Both the position numbers and the translations under genes were made by a program. Below the pieces are notes generated by a model. That model saw nothing but the letters and a program-made list of their open reading frames with translations, ran no database searches and was not told the origin of the DNA. A stretch of DNA of 54,488 bases, from the NCBI GenBank assembly GCA_021796895.1, contig JAKABN010000001.1, forward strand, positions 1-54,488. The letters are read 5' to 3'. Every line of letters starts with the position of its first letter. Position 1 is the first letter of the stretch. This stretch comes from Thermoplasmata archaeon (GTDB taxonomy: Archaea; Thermoplasmatota; Thermoplasmata; Sysuiplasmatales; Sysuiplasmataceae). Of the stretch, positions 24,249-30,754 are shown piece by piece.

Positions 24249-24405
24249 TATCACTTTTCACGGACCTGTCAAAGATAAATAGAGTGTACTCCTTTCTGCC
24301 TGTCAGGCAGGACAGGACCACGGAGGAATGTGATTGAGAATTGCAATCAAATCTTTATTCTCATTCTTCGCTCATAATAAAGCCGACGTTAAACAAGGTC
24401 AGGTC

Positions 24406-27400
24406 ATGGCTCATGAAGCTCGTTATCGGGTGTCCTGCGCGACTCCCCGGCCTGCAGACTCGACAAGCCACACTGTTAATGCTTTCCGTATGTGTGCGGC
24501 TGTCGCAGTCGCCGCAGCTCTGATACTGTCCGGCCTTTCCATTTATTTGATTCGGGCAAATACGGCATCCGGTCCAGTTGCCACCGTTTCCGGTCCAAGC
24601 ACAGCACAGCTCATTCACGGGCCTTATGCTTCATCGGGTCCGACGGAGCTGCCGATGCTGAAAGGAGCAACATCCATCGGTTTGGTTCCAGGCTCAATGC
24701 CAATGTACCTTACCGTAAGCTTCAAAATCAGAAATGAGCAGCAGCTTGTCACTCTCATAAGCGAACAGCAGACACCCGGATCCCCGTTGTATCATCATTT
24801 CCTTTCTCTCAGTCAGTTCCAGCAGTCGTTCGGTCCGACGTCTCAGGTATACAACGAAGCACTTTCCTATTTCACCGCAATGGGTTTTACACAGGTTCCG
24901 ACGGGAACAACAATGACGCTTGCCTTCCGGGCGAGCGCGGGGGACGTCGGCAGTGCTTTCAAAACACAGATAGGATTTTTCAGACTGCATAACGGTTCGA
25001 CTGTTTATTCAAACATACGTTCTCTGTCCCTGCCTGTACCAATTTCATCGTCGATTTCCTCGGTGAACGGCATGACCGATATTGTCAAAATACACACGGG
25101 ACTGGTTCATTCCCCGTTCTTCGAATACGGCGGCTACCTTCCGTTGGCGGCTTCATCTTCCGGAACGTCACAGTATTCGAACATGAGCAGGGCCGTGAAT
25201 TTTACGAAACCCGGTTTCCTTTATACCGGCAAATCCTTCCCATATGGTCAGTGGCAATTCCTGAACCCATCGGTCCTGGGAACGGCCTACAACGCAACAC
25301 CTCTTTACGCGTTGGGCGACAGAGGACAGGGGACCACTATCGCTGTTGTCATGGCCGGCGGCTACAACCCGTCTGACCTCGCCACTTATTCAAAAATGGT
25401 GTTCAACAGCTCCAGCCAGATACTGAACAGACTTACGCCATATCCAGTTAACGGCGGCACTGCCAACGCCACGCTTCCAGGCGCGGTTCTCCAGACCGGA
25501 GGCGACGCATTTGAATTCACGCTGGATATAGAATATTCCGGCACGATGGCTCCCGGGGCCCACATCGATGCGGTATACGGTCCGAGTCTCAGTACGGCGT
25601 CTCTTGTCAGTGCATACGCGAAACTCACCACAATTTCTCCCCTGCCAAACGTCATAACAAACAGCTGGGGAGGGTCTGAGGACACGTGGTGGAATCTCTA
25701 TGGTCCCTCCTGGCAGAGCGCCGGCGCCCTGGAGAATTATTTCATGGAACTCACCAGCATGGGCTCAACCATACTTGCATCGTCCGGTGATCAGGGCGGA
25801 TACGATTCATTTTCCGGCCTGCTGTCAACATCCATTCCAGCCTCCTCTCCATATGTGGTTGCTGTTGGAGGTGTTCGCACGACAGTGTCAAATGCCACCG
25901 GTGTCCAGTTCCCGTCCCCCTCTCAATATTCAGTCAATGCGACTGTTGCGCCGTTCGGTTTCAGCGAAACTTCCTCCTATCCGGCATGGTTCCCGAATTA
26001 CACACTGAATGCCAGCAGTCCTCGAAATGTGACTTCCAACTCCTACTGGTACACACCGGGATTTACCCCGTCTTCCCCCGATTTCGCATCCGGCGGAATC
26101 GGTCTGAGCTACTGGTTTGAGCAGCCCTGGTGGCAGCACGGAAAGTCAGTGCCGTATACAGGACGCAGGATGGTGCCGGACGTATCGGCGGAAGCAGATT
26201 TCAATCAGACCGTTTATTTCGGCGGCGCCTGGAATTTCTTCTGGGGCGGCACCAGTTTTGCATGTCCTACAATCGCCGGTGAATTCGCCCTGCTCGATAC
26301 GTATCTCAACTCTACTGCCGGCAATTCATCGAACCGGTCTGGTTATTACCTCGGACTCGCCCAGCCTCTGCTCTATAATCTGGGCAACGATCCTCATCTG
26401 CCGCTTGTTCCGTACTCTCAGATAAGTTCGGGTGGAAACCCGTGGGACAATTACGCGAGCGCGGGCGGGCTCGGATGGCCAGGCGGCCAGAACTGGCCCT
26501 ATGCGTACGCTGCGCCCCTGCGAGGCTGGAATCTTCTGACGGGCTGGGGCGTTCCGAACGTTGCCGGCATGGTGCTTGATGCTGCAGCGCTGCTCTCAAA
26601 AAGTTCAAGCTACAACCAGTTCTTCGTCGAATTGAACGGCTCAACTCCTGCTGCTCTTCCGGGCGACGCAACATACACCTTTACACTGGTGAACTCTACA
26701 GGAGCACCTGTTTCCGGCGCCAATGTAAGCATGGCATTCACATCCGCAGACGGCGTGACAAACTACAGTGCCGCTACGACTAACGCGACCGGGCGTTTCT
26801 CTTTTGCCGCCGGCGGCCTGCACGGCTATCTGTCTCTTTACAGTTCCCGCCTGCCGTCCCTGTCTTCCGGCTTTGCGTCCATATGGATATCGCTGCCCAA
26901 CCTCTCTTCAGGGATTGTTTCAGTCACTGTGCTTGGAGCCGGTCATTCGGTAATGGGCGGATTTGATTTCTTCAACGGATTCCTGAGCCCGAACTATCCC
27001 GCGCTCGGCAGCCTGATGCCCAATACGGTCAGGGTACTTGTAACATACAAGGCGACTCCGACTTCCGTCGCCGTGCCTGTATACAATGCGATGTTGCTCG
27101 CTTCTACTCCCAGCGAACCCTACTTTTCCTCTCCTCCTGCATACACCAATCCTTACTATACCGCCCTTTCCTCCCTCAATTATACTCCCGCGAGATCTCT
27201 CAGCTTCACCAACCTTTCCGGAATAGCATATGTGGAAACATGGAATGTGCAGCATCCTGAGAATTACACCATATTCGCATCATATCGCGGCCTCACCAAC
27301 GCGACTCACCTCGCTGTCACACCACGCTTCAATATACAGTCGCTCAACACATTCTCCTCCACAGAAGGCACCAGGGCGGGCGGCAGTCCCGGCTACATAG

Positions 27401-28800
27401 GCAGCGGCGCCAACAGCACGATAATAGCGCCGGCAGTTGCCGGCGTTGGAGATCAGTATACCATGTACATTCGCGTCACCTACTGGAACGGTGCCCCCGC
27501 CGCTTTTGTTCCGGTGGATTTGGCATCGCCAAACCTTGTGTCCCCGCCGTTCTCCCCTGTTCCGATTCAGGGCACGAGCACAGTCACCAACGCTTCAGGC
27601 ATCGCCGCACTTACGATTGACTATGGTGTATCGATAGCCTCGCAGTCTTCCCAGGGTATGCTTCTGATACAGGCGTTCAACGACACCTATCCGTCGGAAT
27701 CCATGCTCACTCCTTCCACAAATCTTACCGTGCTGACCAATGACAGCACTTCCGTTGTGCTGTTTCTGGGCCAGGCATTCGGCACGGCCTACACAACAAT
27801 ACTGCTCAGCTCCGGCTCAGTTCTGTACACGCCGTTCATAGGCACAAGCGGCGCCTACGGCAATTTTTTCATTGAAAGTCCGACTTTCGCACCTCTCAGC
27901 TCATACAACAACATAACCTCTATATCATATTCAGTCGACGGAGTAACTCCGGTCAAAGTTCCCCTGCCGTCGGCAGGTCAGAACAGTTTCCTGTGGTCCT
28001 TCCCCCTGTCCGGTCTCTCTCCGGGCCAGCACACTCTCGCCGTAATGTTCAATGACTCGCACGGTTTTGCCTATTCCGTCGACTACGTGTTTTATGTGAT
28101 AGGCAGCGGTACCAATCCGGGACCCGCAGTTTCGTTCACATCTCCATCGCAGGGTTCATACGTTTCGGGCCCGACAACGGTTTCTTTCACATCAACGCAG
28201 TCCCAGTATCTGCTTTCGGAAACACTCAGGATCAATCAGATATCGTACAACGTCCGCGGCCTGACGTCATTCACATTCAACGCTTCCACATTCGGCTACG
28301 GTGTGATGACGATCACGCTGACCTCTGTCAATTACAACGGCGTCTCGGCATCGACCTCCCTGCTGCTGTATGCCGCTCCGCAGCTCAGGCCCGTTGCGGC
28401 GATAACTTCGCCCACTCCCGGCAGGGTCTTCAATTCAACAGACAGCGTTACAGTCGGCTTCTATTATTCAGGCGACTACATATCATCTGCGACTCTTCAT
28501 GTTACGGGCCCCTCAACAAACGCATCCTACAATGTCAATGGAATGTCGTCCTACACTCTCAGCAGGCTGGCAAAAGGAACTTATCATCTCACGTACACTG
28601 TGACAAGCGCTGACGGATCATCAGGCACGGCCTCAGGCAACTTCACTATACTTTCGACTCCGGCCCAGACTGCCGGCGCGGCGTTCACTGACATCTCCCC
28701 GCTGGCAGGCGGTCTTATGGCTGCCCTGTTCCTCGCCGGCATACTGATCGGACTGTTCATCGACCGCGTGAGAAAGAGACCGCCTCCGAAAGTGCCGTGA
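24406..28800 (+). CDS. Giant membrane-anchored S53 (sedolisin/kumamolisin-type) serine-carboxyl peptidase with a long Ser/Thr-rich C-terminal extension
   Basis: A pro-kumamolisin-like activation domain is present (SFKIRNEQQLVTLISEQQTPGSPLYHHFLSLSQFQQSFGP). The Glu/Asp pair is in EFTLDIEYSG. ITNSWGG and ASSGDQGG are present. The Ser nucleophile is in GGTSFACPTIAGEF. About 850 aa of beta-rich extension follow. The C-terminal anchor is LMAALFLAGILIGLFIDRVRKRPPPKVP. The start is uncertain between 24334 and 24406. Confidence 0.85.
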   Translation: MAHEARYRVSCATPRPADSTSHTVNAFRMCAAVAVAAALILSGLSIYLIRANTASGPVATVSGPSTAQLIHGPYASSGPTELPMLKGATSIGLVPGSMPMYLTVSFKIRNEQQLVTLISEQQTPGSPLYHHFLSLSQFQQSFGPTSQVYNEALSYFTAMGFTQVPTGTTMTLAFRASAGDVGSAFKTQIGFFRLHNGSTVYSNIRSLSLPVPISSSISSVNGMTDIVKIHTGLVHSPFFEYGGYLPLAASSSGTSQYSNMSRAVNFTKPGFLYTGKSFPYGQWQFLNPSVLGTAYNATPLYALGDRGQGTTIAVVMAGGYNPSDLATYSKMVFNSSSQILNRLTPYPVNGGTANATLPGAVLQTGGDAFEFTLDIEYSGTMAPGAHIDAVYGPSLSTASLVSAYAKLTTISPLPNVITNSWGGSEDTWWNLYGPSWQSAGALENYFMELTSMGSTILASSGDQGGYDSFSGLLSTSIPASSPYVVAVGGVRTTVSNATGVQFPSPSQYSVNATVAPFGFSETSSYPAWFPNYTLNASSPRNVTSNSYWYTPGFTPSSPDFASGGIGLSYWFEQPWWQHGKSVPYTGRRMVPDVSAEADFNQTVYFGGAWNFFWGGTSFACPTIAGEFALLDTYLNSTAGNSSNRSGYYLGLAQPLLYNLGNDPHLPLVPYSQISSGGNPWDNYASAGGLGWPGGQNWPYAYAAPLRGWNLLTGWGVPNVAGMVLDAAALLSKSSSYNQFFVELNGSTPAALPGDATYTFTLVNSTGAPVSGANVSMAFTSADGVTNYSAATTNATGRFSFAAGGLHGYLSLYSSRLPSLSSGFASIWISLPNLSSGIVSVTVLGAGHSVMGGFDFFNGFLSPNYPALGSLMPNTVRVLVTYKATPTSVAVPVYNAMLLASTPSEPYFSSPPAYTNPYYTALSSLNYTPARSLSFTNLSGIAYVETWNVQHPENYTIFASYRGLTNATHLAVTPRFNIQSLNTFSSTEGTRAGGSPGYIGSGANSTIIAPAVAGVGDQYTMYIRVTYWNGAPAAFVPVDLASPNLVSPPFSPVPIQGTSTVTNASGIAALTIDYGVSIASQSSQGMLLIQAFNDTYPSESMLTPSTNLTVLTNDSTSVVLFLGQAFGTAYTTILLSSGSVLYTPFIGTSGAYGNFFIESPTFAPLSSYNNITSISYSVDGVTPVKVPLPSAGQNSFLWSFPLSGLSPGQHTLAVMFNDSHGFAYSVDYVFYVIGSGTNPGPAVSFTSPSQGSYVSGPTTVSFTSTQSQYLLSETLRINQISYNVRGLTSFTFNASTFGYGVMTITLTSVNYNGVSASTSLLLYAAPQLRPVAAITSPTPGRVFNSTDSVTVGFYYSGDYISSATLHVTGPSTNASYNVNGMSSYTLSRLAKGTYHLTYTVTSADGSSGTASGNFTILSTPAQTAGAAFTDISPLAGGLMAALFLAGILIGLFIDRVRKRPPPKVP

Positions 28801-28905: not shown

Positions 28906-29562
28906 ATGGAATGCAACGGCTGCCTGTTTCCGGACGACCTGCTGTACGCCGATGATGCAGAACTCTGGTTAAGACCGGACGGGTCTGACTACGTGGTTGG
29001 AATGACGTCCGCGGTTCTCTGGACTGCGGGAAAGGGTGCGAAACTTTCGCTGAAGGCCAGAGGCAGTCTGGTCAGAAGCGGCAAGAGTCTGGCCACAATA
29101 GAGAGTGTGAAATATTTCGGCTCTCTCAGGACACCGTTCGACTGCCTGATTGTGGATGTCAACGCCTCTCTTTCCAGTGAGCCACTGACCACTTCCTCCA
29201 TTTACGGCAGGGACTGGCTTGCCGTCGTCCGTGCAGTCGATCCGGACGGCGCCAGAGCAAGGCTCGTCAGCGGTGCAAGTGCGCACGTTCTCTTTGAGAG
29301 GAAAATATCTTCTCTTCACCTGAACTGTTTCGCCGCGCTTCCTGATGTGGAAATGCTGGAGATAGGTACGGAATGCAACGCCGTGCTCACCCGCCTCAAC
29401 GAGGCGTTTTCCGGGAAGGGTGCCAATTACGTGGTGCATCTGGTGACTGACGACCCGACTTCACCCATCGAGATGATACGGTGGTCAGACGAGACCGGAA
29501 ATAAAATAAAGGAGAGGAAAAAAATTGATAATCTGTTCCACTTCACGCTCGTCAGGGCGTGA
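28906..29562 (+). CDS. Fusion protein: GcvH/LbpA-like lipoyl-carrier domain plus a TusA/SirA-like sulfur-carrier domain
   Basis: The N-terminus is MECNGC (CxxC). The GcvH pattern is VVGMTSAVLWTAGKGAKLSLKARGSLVRSGKSLATIESVKYFGSLRTPFDCLIVDVN...GRDWLAVV, with the ESVK lysine. The C-terminal LEIGTECNAVLTRLNEAF...VVHLVTDDPTSPIEMIRWSDETGNKI follows the TusA pattern with the Cys retained. GGAGA lies 8 nt upstream of the ATG at 28906. Confidence 0.8.
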   Translation: MECNGCLFPDDLLYADDAELWLRPDGSDYVVGMTSAVLWTAGKGAKLSLKARGSLVRSGKSLATIESVKYFGSLRTPFDCLIVDVNASLSSEPLTTSSIYGRDWLAVVRAVDPDGARARLVSGASAHVLFERKISSLHLNCFAALPDVEMLEIGTECNAVLTRLNEAFSGKGANYVVHLVTDDPTSPIEMIRWSDETGNKIKERKKIDNLFHFTLVRA

Positions 29563-29569
29563 GTCCGGA

Positions 29570-30412
29570 TTATTTCTCTATCGGTATGCCCACGGAGTTT
29601 CCCCACTCAGACCATGAGCCGTCGTAATTCCAGACATTGCCGTAGCCGAGGAGAAAGCGAAGCACGAACCACGTGTGCGATGACCTTTCTCCTATCCTGC
29701 AGTAGGTTATGATGTTCCTGTCAGGCGTGATGCCCCTGGACTCGTACAGCTTTTTCAGCTCGTCGGCGCTCTTGAATGTGCCGTCCTCGTTGACTGCCTG
29801 CGACCACGGTATGTTGGCCGCTCCCGGAATGTGACCTCCCCTCTGAGCGCCCTCGTTCGGATACTCCGGCGGTGCAAGTATCTGACCCGTGTACTCCGCC
29901 GGACTCCTTACGTCGACAAGCGCCCAGTTCTGCTGTCCTGTTGCCTTTTTCACATCACCTGCAAAGGCCCTTATTTTCGGATCGGGTTCGCGGGCACTGT
30001 AAGATGTCCGGGGATACGACGGCACATCCTTAGTAACGGGGCTGTCTTCAGCCAGCCACTTCTTCCTGCCTCCGTTCATCAGCTTTACGTGTTCCACACC
30101 GTAATATTTGAAGTCCCAGAATGCGTATGCGGCAAACCAGTTGTTGTAATCCCCGTACAGCACAATGGTCGTGCCGTTGCTTATTCCCGCTCCTGCAAAA
30201 AGTTCCTCCAGCTGCTTCCTGCCAAGTATGTCCCTGGTTATCTGATTATTCAGATCCTTTCGCCAGTCAAAGAGCACAGCTCCGGGAATGTGTCCCTGAT
30301 TGTAGTTAGGGGCCGGATCGTAATCCACTTCAACGATCCTGACGCCTTCTCTGTTGAGGTTCTCCCGAACCCATTCCGTGCTGACAAGTACATCGCTGTT
30401 TGCATATTCCAT
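29570..30412 (-). CDS. Two-domain rhodanese (thiosulfate / 3-mercaptopyruvate sulfurtransferase)
   Basis: The active-site loop is ITYCRIGERSSHTW, in the second of two rhodanese domains. An internal Met (MEYANSDVLVSTEWV) is chosen as the start because a TATA-like TAAATAAAC lies at about 30455-30465. Confidence 0.9.
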   Translation of the reverse strand: MEYANSDVLVSTEWVRENLNREGVRIVEVDYDPAPNYNQGHIPGAVLFDWRKDLNNQITRDILGRKQLEELFAGAGISNGTTIVLYGDYNNWFAAYAFWDFKYYGVEHVKLMNGGRKKWLAEDSPVTKDVPSYPRTSYSAREPDPKIRAFAGDVKKATGQQNWALVDVRSPAEYTGQILAPPEYPNEGAQRGGHIPGAANIPWSQAVNEDGTFKSADELKKLYESRGITPDRNIITYCRIGERSSHTWFVLRFLLGYGNVWNYDGSWSEWGNSVGIPIEK

Positions 30413-30613
30413 GTTATTACCTTCCGTTCCTATAACGGCGTAATATTTCAAGTTTATTTAGCCGGGTTCGAGACTGTTGCATAATGATTCAATCGTCCTG
30501 AGTCATGTCCTGAGCCTGCAGCCCCGGAATATGGGCAAAAGTGCAGAAAGACATAATTATCAGGGGAGCATAGTTGCGGGATGGTGTAGAAATTGGCAGA
30601 CAACAAGCACGTG

Positions 30614-30754
30614 ATGCACTGTTCCTACTGCGAACTGAGGATTGGTTTCAATCCGGAAGCGGAAAACGTGGATGTGCCGCTATTCTGTGATGACGACTGT
30701 TACGCGCATTATAAGGAAAAATATCCGGACAAGGTCAGGGAAGGCTGGCCCTGA
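30614..30754 (+). CDS. Small (46 aa) Cys-rich TRASH/zinc-ribbon-like protein, absent from the ORF track
   Basis: The translation is MHCSYCELRIGFNPEAENVDVPLFCDDDCYAHYKEKYPDKVREGWP, with the spacing C-x2-C...FC-x3-C. A TATA-like ATAATTAT lies about 55 nt upstream. An alternative TTG start is at 30593. Confidence 0.4.
   Translation: MHCSYCELRIGFNPEAENVDVPLFCDDDCYAHYKEKYPDKVREGWP

What the first reader, a model, noticed from the sequence alone, without database searches (positions are those of the whole stretch)
28906..30412. Natural fusion of a GcvH/LbpA-like lipoyl carrier with a TusA-like sulfur carrier, convergent with a rhodanese
The N-terminal 120 aa follow the glycine-cleavage H-protein pattern, including the lipoyl-lysine context IESVKY. 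The C-terminal 75 aa follow the TusA/SirA pattern (Cys in TECNAVL, then TDDPTSPIEMIRWSDETG). A CxxC (MECNGC) sits at the extreme N-terminus. A two-domain rhodanese with the CRIGERS active-site loop ends 7 bp away on the opposite strand.

Rhodanese, TusA and lipoate-binding GcvH-like proteins (LbpA) are separate components of cytoplasmic sulfur-trafficking and sHdr-type sulfur-oxidation pathways. A covalent LbpA-TusA fusion would be direct genomic evidence for hand-over between the persulfide relay and a lipoyl carrier. No hdr or dsrE genes are in this window.
Basis: partly seen in the sequence, partly recalled or inferred. Interest (0 to 1): 0.6.

Follow-up and report, generated by a model that had tools for sequence, protein, structure and literature searches.

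The report
LbpA-like/TusA-like fusion paired with rhodanese
This is a real single gene that joins an LbpA-type (glycine-cleavage-H-like) domain to a TusA-type sulfur-carrier domain.

Summary
ORF 28906-29562 (+) encodes a 218-aa two-domain protein. A two-domain CRIGERS rhodanese (29570-30412, -) ends 7 bp away on the opposite strand.

- **N-terminal half:** an H-protein fold that groups with sHdr-type LbpA rather than GcvH. It carries both LbpA-specific cysteines (C6, C141).
- **C-terminal half:** a TusA fold. Its invariant C157 aligns with the TusA active-site Cys19, but the CPxP prolines are missing.
- **Not an artefact:** the same single ORF occurs in at least 112 species genomes, nearly all Thermoplasmata MAGs. 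This TusA variant was found only inside this fusion.
- **Link to the rhodanese:** the rhodanese is the convergent neighbour in 60 of 80 loci, across at least 4 different flank contexts. In a 401-genome class sample both genes occur in the same four families. One genome carries two adjacent pairs.
- **Lipoylation:** the lipoyl-position residue is Arg in about two thirds of members. It flips between K and R within the window's own genus, with at least 4-7 changes on the tree.
- **Link to sHdr:** most carrier genomes lack a stand-alone LbpA. The window's genome has a complete shdr-lbpA-dsrE-lplA cluster on another contig.

Best reading: a lipoate-independent, cysteine-based sulfane-sulfur acceptor or relay partner of the rhodanese. 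I found no paper describing it. New variant of a known kind; moderate interest.

The parts
28906..29562 (+). Fusion gene (218 aa plus stop): LbpA-like H-fold domain joined to a TusA-fold domain
   Evidence: It is a single ORF in 80 fetched loci and 112 species genomes.
28906..29340 (+). LbpA-like domain, residues 1-145 (GCV_H fold)
   Evidence: Pfam GCV_H 58.4 bits. Foldseek to T. thermophilus GcvH 1onl_A gives TM 0.87 and rmsd 1.9. It is 34% identical (82 bits) to the genome's own LbpA and 25% (44 bits) to its GcvH. On the tree, the split placing fusions and LbpA apart from GcvH has support 100/99.
28921..28923 (+). Cys6 codon: the LbpA-type N-terminal cysteine and second Cys of the apparent CxxC
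   Evidence: Conserved in 187 of 188 ungapped sequences. The first Cys (C3) is conserved in only 4 of 200. C6 aligns with Cys7 of the own LbpA.
29110..29112 (+). Lys69 codon, at the lipoyl-lysine position on the hairpin between strands 61-66 and 71-75
   Evidence: Family counts are R 131, K 65, T 4. It flips between K and R within genus and family. At least 4-7 changes are needed on the tree.
29326..29328 (+). Cys141 codon: the LbpA-type C-terminal cysteine, in the linker before the TusA domain
   Evidence: Invariant in 200 of 200. It aligns with Cys144 of the own LbpA.
29341..29559 (+). TusA-fold domain, residues 146-218 (beta-alpha-beta-alpha-beta-beta)
   Evidence: Secondary structure from the AF2 model. 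Foldseek to E. coli TusA 3lvj_C gives TM 0.87 and rmsd 1.4 over 73 aa, with further hits to SirA-like 3hz7 and YeeD. The family profile hits TusA/YhhP at E=7e-4 over the whole domain. This variant occurs only inside the fusion.
29374..29376 (+). Cys157 codon: equivalent of the TusA active-site Cys19, at the N-cap of helix 157-168
   Evidence: Invariant in 200 of 200. A gapless profile alignment places it on Cys19 of E. coli TusA.
29563..29569 (.). 7-bp spacer between the two convergent stop codons
29570..30412 (-). Two-domain thiosulfate-sulfurtransferase-type rhodanese (280 aa), with catalytic Cys238 in CRIGERS (codon 29699-29701)
   Evidence: Pfam Rhodanese 127.9 bits. PDB sequence hits: 1uar at 354 bits and M. 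tuberculosis CysA2/3 (3hwi, 3aax) at 328 bits. It is the convergent neighbour of the fusion in 60 of 80 loci. Its distribution across families matches that of the fusion.

Best explanation
The gene encodes one polypeptide with two domains. The first is an LbpA-derived H-fold domain that keeps the two LbpA-specific cysteines, C6 and C141. The second is a TusA-fold domain that keeps the active-site cysteine, C157.

The protein most likely works with the adjacent thiosulfate-sulfurtransferase-type rhodanese as its protein acceptor or relay for sulfane sulfur. The proposed route has three steps:
1. The rhodanese Cys238 forms a persulfide, for example from thiosulfate, releasing sulfite.
2. The sulfur passes to C157 of the TusA-like domain.
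3. It is then handed to, or resolved by, the neighbouring C141/C6 thiol pair of the LbpA-like domain. The outcome would be either release as sulfide with formation of a C6-C141 disulfide, or onward delivery.

Lipoate is not needed for the function conserved across the family. In this particular protein K69 is present, so lipoylation cannot be excluded.

**Shown here:** the fusion is real; the domain identities; the pattern of cysteine and lysine conservation; gene-pair adjacency, co-distribution and co-duplication; independence from sHdr.

**Inferred:** every sulfur-transfer step and its direction.
For: - **Architecture:**
- **LbpA affinity:** Cao et al. 2018 (PMC6067878) define LbpA by a strictly conserved Lys plus an N-terminal and a C-terminal Cys that GcvH lacks. 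C6 and C141 align with exactly these in the genome's own LbpA. The fusion clade sits with LbpA on the tree, apart from GcvH, with support 100/99. The N-domain pI of 6.1 is LbpA-like (6.1-7.7) rather than GcvH-like (4.05-5.2).
- **Cysteines:** C6 is conserved in 187/188, C141 in 200/200 and C157 in 200/200 sequences.
- **Lys not conserved:** family counts are R 131, K 65, T 4. In the window's own family five genomes have K and five have R, including flips within the genus. The tree needs at least 7 changes, 4 of them forced by strongly supported branches. Ten of 10 stand-alone LbpAs and 12 of 12 GcvHs keep K.
- **Rhodanese adjacency:** it is convergent within 400 bp in 60 of 80 loci, with at least 4 unrelated flank contexts. 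All 9 genomes of the window's family show it.
- **Co-distribution in 401 class genomes:** the fusion occurs in about 91 genomes (f1 10/10, f10 50/59, f25 about 29/33, f27 1-2/3). The rhodanese ortholog occurs in 91 (f1 10/10, f10 52/59, f25 27/33, f27 1/3, f22 1/11, none elsewhere). About 85 genomes have both.
- **Co-duplication:** genome G090 carries two adjacent fusion-rhodanese pairs.
- **Literature context:** LbpA's two Cys are modelled close enough for a disulfide, and their role is still open (preprint 10.64898/2026.10.01.755906). TusA co-purifies with LbpA in Aquifex (10.1101/2023.12.18.572138). Lutacidiplasmatales were predicted to use TST on thiosulfate (PMC9287336).
Against: - No biochemical data exist for any member.
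- The two genes are convergent, so they are not co-transcribed.
- Most adjacent loci (46-49) share flanks. Much of the adjacency count therefore reflects shared ancestry, and the co-distribution may rest on very few gain events.
- In one clade (family f25, mostly the K variant) the rhodanese usually lies 1.5-17 kb away rather than adjacent.
- I could not obtain model coordinates, so the distance of C157 to C141/C6 is unknown.
- In this specific protein K69 is intact, and the genome encodes an LbpA-type ligase, so a lipoate-dependent mode is not excluded.
- The TusA-like domain lacks the CPxP prolines, and P0001 itself scores below Pfam's TusA cut-off.
Confidence: 0.55

Rival explanations
1. 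One reading: the N-domain is a lipoylated LbpA-type carrier. The fusion hands persulfide sulfur from TusA to the lipoyl arm and feeds the sHdr sulfur-oxidation system.
For: - P0001 has K69 in an ESVK context.
- The same genome carries a complete shdrC1B1AHC2B2-lbpA-dsrE-lplA cluster on contig C140, plus further TusA and DsrE genes.
- The N-domain has an LbpA-like charge.
- Of the 18-19 sampled genomes with a stand-alone LbpA, 17-18 also carry the fusion.
Against: - Lys is replaced by Arg or Thr in about two thirds of the family. It flips within the window's genus although all these genomes keep sHdr/LbpA.
- About 73 of about 91 fusion-bearing genomes have no stand-alone LbpA.
- The gene is not in or near the shdr cluster, which has its own LbpA.
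- The conserved neighbour is a rhodanese, not hdr, dsrE or a ligase gene.
Confidence: 0.17
2. The fusion is a sulfur carrier for biosynthesis (molybdenum cofactor, tRNA thiolation or Fe-S assembly, as for E. coli TusA). It works independently of the rhodanese, and the adjacency is inherited synteny.
For: - It is near-universal within four families regardless of sHdr, which looks like a housekeeping gene.
- It has the TusA fold with the active-site Cys.
- Most adjacent loci share flanks.
- In the K clade it lies near MOSC and RidA genes.
Against: - The pair persists in at least 4 otherwise unrelated contexts and is duplicated as a unit in G090.
- The distribution across families matches the rhodanese far more closely than it matches a molybdoenzyme marker.
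- The K-clade neighbours are explained by close relatedness of those genomes.
Confidence: 0.15
3. It is a thiol-disulfide redox sensor or oxidoreductase that uses the C6-C141 pair and has no sulfur-carrier role.
For: The two LbpA-type cysteines are invariant. In LbpA they are modelled within disulfide distance.
Against: - The third invariant Cys sits exactly at the TusA persulfide site.
- The linked partner is a sulfurtransferase.
- There is no DNA-binding or thioredoxin-like element.
Confidence: 0.06
4. It is an artefact: two genes joined by a sequencing or assembly error.
For: None was found. P0001's own Pfam TusA score is sub-threshold.
Against: - The same uninterrupted ORF of 216-247 aa occurs in 146 database proteins and 112 species genomes from many independent studies.
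- The model is confident across the junction, with pTM 0.86.
- No stand-alone version of the C-domain exists among 1.84 billion representative proteins.
Confidence: 0.01

Closest known systems
LbpA, the lipoate-binding protein of the sHdr sulfur-oxidation system (Cao et al. 2018, PMC6067878)
   Same: It has the H-protein fold. It has the N-terminal GCxxPDD cysteine and the C-terminal cysteine that GcvH lacks. Its charge is LbpA-like. It is the sister group of Thermoplasmata LbpAs on the tree.
   Different: The lysine is not conserved (R in about 2/3). The gene is not encoded in or beside an shdr cluster. It is mostly found in genomes without sHdr/LbpA. It carries a covalently attached TusA-fold domain.
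TusA (E. coli YhhP/SirA; PF01206)
   Same: It has the same beta-alpha-beta-alpha-beta-beta fold (TM 0.87). An invariant Cys sits at the position of the persulfide-carrying Cys19. The G-x-x-C spacing and the DDP motif are conserved.
   Different: There are no CPxP prolines (consensus E-C-S/A/N/Q-A-V/I-L). P0001 is below Pfam's cut-off. This variant exists only fused behind the LbpA-like domain and has its own signature, TDDPTSPIEMxRWSD.
GcvH, the glycine cleavage system H protein
   Same: It shares the fold, the E-S-x-K hairpin context and a Pfam GCV_H hit.
   Different: NCBIfam GcvH models score 43-50 bits against cut-offs of 115-117. It is only 25% identical to the genome's true GcvH. It has extra cysteines, a non-conserved Lys and a less acidic charge.
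Two-domain thiosulfate sulfurtransferases (T. thermophilus rhodanese 1UAR; M. tuberculosis CysA2/CysA3; SseA). This applies to the neighbouring gene.
   Same: It is 280 aa with two rhodanese domains and the active-site loop CRIGERS of the CRxGx[R/T] type.
   Different: None was noted, other than its conserved pairing with the fusion gene.
Rhodanese/TusA/DsrE sulfur-transfer networks that feed sHdr or rDsr (Tanabe et al., 10.1101/2023.12.18.572138)
   Same: It uses the same kinds of modules (rhodanese, TusA, LbpA). TusA physically associates with LbpA in Aquifex.
   Different: Here TusA and LbpA are one polypeptide. No DsrE or Hdr is linked. The system occurs mostly without sHdr.

Membership tests
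GcvH (glycine cleavage H protein) | H-protein (lipoyl-domain-like) fold; Pfam PF01597 above its gathering score | tested here: met
   58.4 bits against 22.2. Foldseek TM 0.87 to 1onl_A.
GcvH (glycine cleavage H protein) | Equivalog-level sequence match (NCBIfam TIGR00527 / NF002270) | tested here: not met
   43.1 and 50 bits against cut-offs of 115.85 and 117. The genome has a separate true GcvH on C106.
GcvH / LbpA | Strictly conserved lipoyl-lysine at the hairpin tip | tested here: not met
   Lys is present in this protein (K69). Across the family the counts are R 131, K 65, T 4, with at least 4-7 switches. Whether K69 is actually lipoylated is not testable here.
LbpA (sHdr-associated) | [quoted passage not shown] | tested here: met
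   C6 in 187/188 and C141 in 200/200 sequences. Both align with the Cys of the own LbpA. The criterion comes from PMC6067878.
LbpA (sHdr-associated) | Encoded in or immediately next to an shdr gene cluster | tested here: not met
   No hdr or dsrE genes lie in the window. The shdr cluster with its own LbpA is on contig C140. Most carrier genomes lack a stand-alone LbpA.
LbpA (sHdr-associated) | Groups with LbpA rather than GcvH in phylogeny | tested here: met
   The split separating fusion plus LbpA from GcvH plus GcvH-like has support 100/99. The fusion clade is a sister group of the LbpA clade, not nested inside it.
TusA (PF01206) | TusA two-layer alpha/beta fold | tested here: met
   Foldseek 3lvj_C TM 0.87 and rmsd 1.4 over 73 aa. 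Secondary-structure order from the model.
TusA (PF01206) | Pfam gathering score | tested here: not met
   P0001 scores 15.6 bits against 28.6, and only profile positions 25-68 align. Most homologues carry a precomputed PF01206 hit. The family profile reaches E. coli TusA at E=7e-4.
TusA (PF01206) | Active-site cysteine at the N-terminus of helix 1 | tested here: met
   C157 is invariant and aligns gaplessly with TusA Cys19.
TusA (PF01206) | CPxP motif around the active cysteine | tested here: not met
   The sequence is E-C-N-A-V in P0001 and E-C-[SAQN]-A-[VI] across the family, with no prolines.
Thiosulfate sulfurtransferase / rhodanese (neighbouring gene) | Tandem rhodanese domains with a catalytic Cys in a CRxGx[R/T] loop | tested here: met
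   Two PF00581 stretches at 127.9 bits and the CRIGERS loop. PDB hit 1uar at 354 bits. Enzymatic activity was not tested.

The most novel reading that the evidence does not exclude
The family is a natural 'lipoate-free LbpA'. The invariant C6/C141 pair, fed by a covalently tethered TusA cysteine, takes over the dithiol acceptor role that dihydrolipoamide plays for rhodanese. Rhodanese plus fusion would then form a self-contained two-protein system that splits thiosulfate into sulfite and protein-bound or released sulfide. By extension, TusA-to-cysteine-pair hand-over would be the unexplained job of the conserved cysteines in all sHdr LbpAs.
Probability: 0.3. Interest if true: 0.75.

Novelty: new variant of a known kind. 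Interest (0 to 1): 0.55.

Why it matters
LbpA is essential for sHdr-type sulfur oxidation, but how sulfur reaches it is unresolved. So is the role of its two conserved cysteines. A 2026 preprint shows only that they are dispensable for lipoylation.

This family offers a natural gene-fusion argument that TusA and LbpA act as direct partners. It also offers a natural experiment in which the lysine has been lost many times while the cysteines never change. Together these point to the cysteines as the site that receives sulfur.

The family also supplies a candidate physiological acceptor for the thiosulfate sulfurtransferase that genome studies of soil and acid-mine Thermoplasmata (Lutacidiplasmatales, Sysuiplasmatales) invoked without naming a partner. 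The proteins are small and soluble, so the idea is directly testable in vitro.

Tried and rejected
- **Sequencing-error join:** rejected, because the single ORF is conserved family-wide.
- **N-terminal CxxC as a motif:** rejected. The first Cys is present in only 4 of 200 sequences.
- **NCBIfam 'GcvH_rel_desulf' and 'not_gcvH' membership:** rejected. Scores were 27.6 and 24.7 bits against cut-offs of 150 and 144.
- **Sulfite-oxidase (PF00174) co-distribution:** tested as a check on a thiosulfate-to-sulfite-to-sulfate module. The family is much broader (128/401 genomes, only 30/59 in family f10) and includes short YedY-like proteins, so the result is uninformative.
- **K-clade neighbours (Pirin, MOSC, RidA, GCV_T, cupredoxin):** conserved only among closely related genomes, so this is synteny rather than evidence.
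- **Glyoxalase-like gene about 6 kb downstream in the R clade:** the same conclusion applies.
- **Cys-rich mini-ORF at 30593-30754:** conserved only in the three nearest loci and not part of the system.
- **Cys-Cys distances:** the structure tool returns no coordinates, so the distance from C157 to C141/C6 could not be measured.
- **Literature:** searches for a GcvH/LbpA-TusA fusion returned nothing relevant.
Full report
**1. Observation**

The + strand ORF 28906-29562 translates to a 218-aa protein, P0001. The ATG at 28906 matches the N-termini of homologues, which begin M-x-x-x-G-C. Pfam finds GCV_H over residues 13-127 at 58.4 bits, against a cut-off of 22.2. It finds only a weak TusA hit over residues 172-215, at 15.6 bits (E=0.015) against a cut-off of 28.6.

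On the opposite strand, 29570-30412 encodes a 280-aa two-domain rhodanese, P0002. It scores 127.9 bits and carries the loop CRIGERS with Cys238. The two stop codons are 7 bp apart.

**2. A real fusion, not an artefact**

A search of 5.8 billion proteins returned 146 full-length relatives of 216-247 aa. Most have precomputed GCV_H and TusA hits. A scan of one genome per prokaryotic species found 112 genomes encoding it. Nearly all are Thermoplasmata MAGs from acid soil, peat and mine drainage, including Ca. Sysuiplasmataceae and Ca. Lutacidiplasma.

An AlphaFold2 model built on 108 sequences has mean pLDDT 94.1 and pTM 0.86. Foldseek against the PDB matches the N-terminal half to H-proteins: T. 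thermophilus GcvH 1onl_A at TM 0.87 and rmsd 1.9 A. It matches the C-terminal half to E. coli TusA (3lvj_C, TM 0.87, rmsd 1.4 A over 73 aa), a SirA-like protein and YeeD. The family profile also reaches E. coli TusA by sequence, at E=7e-4 over the whole domain.

A profile alignment to E. coli TusA is gapless. It puts the invariant C157 on the persulfide-carrying Cys19, G154 on Gly16, and the DDP motif on DDP. C157 lies at the N-cap of helix 157-168 in the model.

Searching the C-terminal domain alone against 1.84 billion representative proteins gave only 49 hits. Nearly all were the same fusion or truncated pieces of it; the remaining four or five were long multi-domain proteins. So this TusA variant has no stand-alone form.

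**3. The N-domain is LbpA-like, not GcvH**

The window's genome is a 2.07-Mb MAG, 79% complete, with three H-fold genes:
- a canonical GcvH on contig C106;
- an LbpA on contig C140;
- this fusion.

P0001 is 34% identical (82 bits) to the LbpA across residues 4-142, and only 25% identical (44 bits) to the GcvH.

Cao et al. [quoted passage not shown] P0001's C6 and C141 align exactly with those cysteines.

I built a maximum-likelihood tree of 57 H-fold domains. The fusions are monophyletic (support 100/98). Thermoplasmata LbpAs are monophyletic (98/94). Both lie on one side of a 100/99 branch that separates them from GcvH and a third GcvH-like group. The N-domain pI of 6.1 falls in the range of the LbpAs (6.1-7.7) rather than the GcvHs (4.05-5.2). 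This is the property a 2026 preprint identifies as the ligase discriminator.

**4. The lipoyl-lysine is not a conserved feature; three cysteines are**

In a 200-sequence alignment:

| Position | Residue counts |
|---|---|
| C6 | 187 of 188 ungapped |
| C141 | 200 of 200 |
| C157 | 200 of 200 |
| C3 (first Cys of the 'CxxC') | 4 of 200 |
| Lipoyl position 69 | Arg 131, Lys 65, Thr 4 |

Within the window's own family the residue is K in five genomes and R in five. This includes 2 K and 2 R within the same genus. On a tree of 85 fusions built without that column, the K/R/T label needs at least 7 changes, of which 4 are forced by strongly supported branches.

By contrast, all 10 stand-alone Thermoplasmata LbpAs and all 12 GcvHs examined keep the lysine, as did 95 of 95 LbpAs in Cao et al. 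The selective constraint expected for a lipoylation site is therefore absent. Whether K69 of this particular protein is modified cannot be decided here.

**5. Link to the rhodanese**

- An ortholog of P0002 (58-77% identity) lies convergent within 400 bp of the fusion in 60 of 80 fetched loci, or 60 of about 74 with enough downstream sequence.
- All 9 other genomes of the window's family show the same arrangement.
- Clustering the flanks shows that most adjacent loci share one context. The pair is nevertheless kept in at least four unrelated contexts.
- In a sample of 401 genomes of the class, the full-length fusion occurs in about 91, confined to four of 35 families: f1 10/10, f10 50/59, f25 about 29/33, f27 1-2/3.
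- The rhodanese ortholog occurs in 91 genomes in the same families: f1 10/10, f10 52/59, f25 27/33, f27 1/3, plus one f22 genome and none elsewhere. About 85 genomes have both.
- One genome, G090, carries two fusion-rhodanese pairs, both adjacent and convergent.

Three caveats apply. These genomes are related to each other, so independent events are few. The genes are convergent and so not co-transcribed. In family f25 the rhodanese usually lies 1.5-17 kb away.

The rhodanese is the only two-domain one found in the window's genome. Its closest solved relatives are T. thermophilus rhodanese and the M. tuberculosis CysA2/3 thiosulfate sulfurtransferases.

**6. Relation to sHdr**

The window has no hdr or dsrE genes. 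Contig C140 of the same genome carries a complete type-I cluster: shdrC1-B1-A-H-C2-B2, lbpA, dsrE, an LplA-type ligase, mrp, and dsrE/F/H-like genes. TusA and DsrE genes lie on two further contigs.

In the class sample only 19 genomes have a stand-alone LbpA. Of these, 17-18 also carry the fusion. About 73 fusion-bearing genomes lack a stand-alone LbpA. The fusion is therefore not a component of the sHdr system, although in sHdr-positive organisms like this one it could feed it.

**7. Mechanism proposed**

The conserved elements are:
- a TusA-site cysteine;
- the LbpA cysteine pair, 16 residues upstream and at the N-terminus;
- a linked thiosulfate sulfurtransferase.

LbpA's two cysteines are modelled within disulfide distance, and their role is still open. 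TusA co-purifies with LbpA in Aquifex. Rhodanese is long known to use dihydrolipoate as a sulfane acceptor, as cited in Cao et al..

I therefore propose this route: rhodanese Cys238-SSH, then C157-SSH, then C141/C6. The cysteine pair would act as a built-in dithiol acceptor, or as the next relay station, without needing lipoate. Sheridan et al. predicted TST-dependent thiosulfate use in Lutacidiplasmatales without naming an acceptor (PMC9287336). This fusion is a candidate. All transfer steps are inferred. I give the general model about 0.55.

**8. Rivals**

| Rival reading | Estimate |
|---|---|
| Lipoylated LbpA feeding sHdr | about 0.17. Possible for this K-bearing member in an sHdr-positive genome, but not as the family function |
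| Biosynthetic TusA-like carrier unrelated to the rhodanese | about 0.15 |
| Redox sensor | about 0.06 |
| Artefact | about 0.01 |

**9. Novelty**

The architecture is auto-annotated in databases. JGI calls it 'glycine cleavage system H lipoate-binding protein/TusA-related sulfurtransferase'. NCBI calls it 'sulfurtransferase TusA family protein' or hypothetical. Four full-text searches and targeted reading of the main sHdr/LbpA papers found no description of it. It is a new variant of known kinds of sulfur carriers. It is of moderate interest, because it makes the open question of the LbpA cysteines and the TusA-LbpA hand-over directly testable.

**10. Limits**

- The structure tool gave no coordinates, so I could not measure Cys-Cys distances.
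- NCBI organism labels for L063 (Nitrososphaerota) and L091 (Crenarchaeota) suggest occurrence outside Thermoplasmata. I did not verify this.

Noticed in passing
same genome, contig C140:3078-12767 (outside the window): A complete type-I sHdr sulfur-oxidation cluster: shdrC1-B1-A-H-C2-B2, a 149-aa LbpA (ATIESGKWAG, with N- and C-terminal Cys), a DsrE3-like gene, an LplA-type lipoate ligase, Mrp/ApbC, and three DsrE/F/H-like genes. This Thermoplasmata MAG is therefore a likely sHdr-type sulfur oxidiser.
   Followed up: partly
window 30593-30754 (+): A small Cys-rich ORF (46 aa from MHCSYCEL...; CxxC ... FCDDDC) lies between the rhodanese and the acyl-CoA dehydrogenase gene. It is conserved at 74-78% identity in the three nearest loci (L012-L014) and in a called 46-aa gene in L094, but not in more distant fusion loci. 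It looks like a real small gene but not part of the fusion-rhodanese pair.
   Followed up: partly
window 24334-28800 (+): A 1488-aa protein with a pro-kumamolisin activation domain, a subtilase/sedolisin-type peptidase domain, Ig-like and CopC-like repeats, and a C-terminal transmembrane anchor. It is probably a large cell-surface protease. An ortholog occupies the same position in L094.
   Followed up: no
G090:C14:21828-23372 and G090:C46:1862-3446: One genome of family f10 carries two separate fusion-rhodanese pairs, both convergent and adjacent. The pair has been duplicated or acquired as a unit.
   Followed up: partly
P0144 (742 aa, metagenomic protein): A protein with six tandem canonical TusA domains, each with a CPxP motif, separated by Pro/Ser-rich linkers. 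This is an unusual poly-TusA architecture, and it is unrelated to the fusion family.
   Followed up: no
L113, L114, L131-L137 (other Thermoplasmata families): A third group of about 140-aa GcvH-like proteins (motifs GTLSSGKWTGK or GKIQSAKWVGK). They have a lysine but none of the LbpA cysteines, and on the tree they are distinct from both LbpA and canonical GcvH. Their function was not examined.
   Followed up: no
L093:9273-10666: In the K-variant clade the fusion gene overlaps the stop of an upstream Pirin-family gene by 4 nt, so the two are probably co-transcribed. It lies near MOSC, RidA and GCV_T genes. These neighbours are conserved only among closely related genomes.
   Followed up: partly
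L063 and L091: Two fusion-rhodanese pairs come from MAGs labelled Nitrososphaerota and Crenarchaeota, with flanks unrelated to the Thermoplasmata loci. This could reflect joint horizontal transfer or mis-binning.
   Followed up: no
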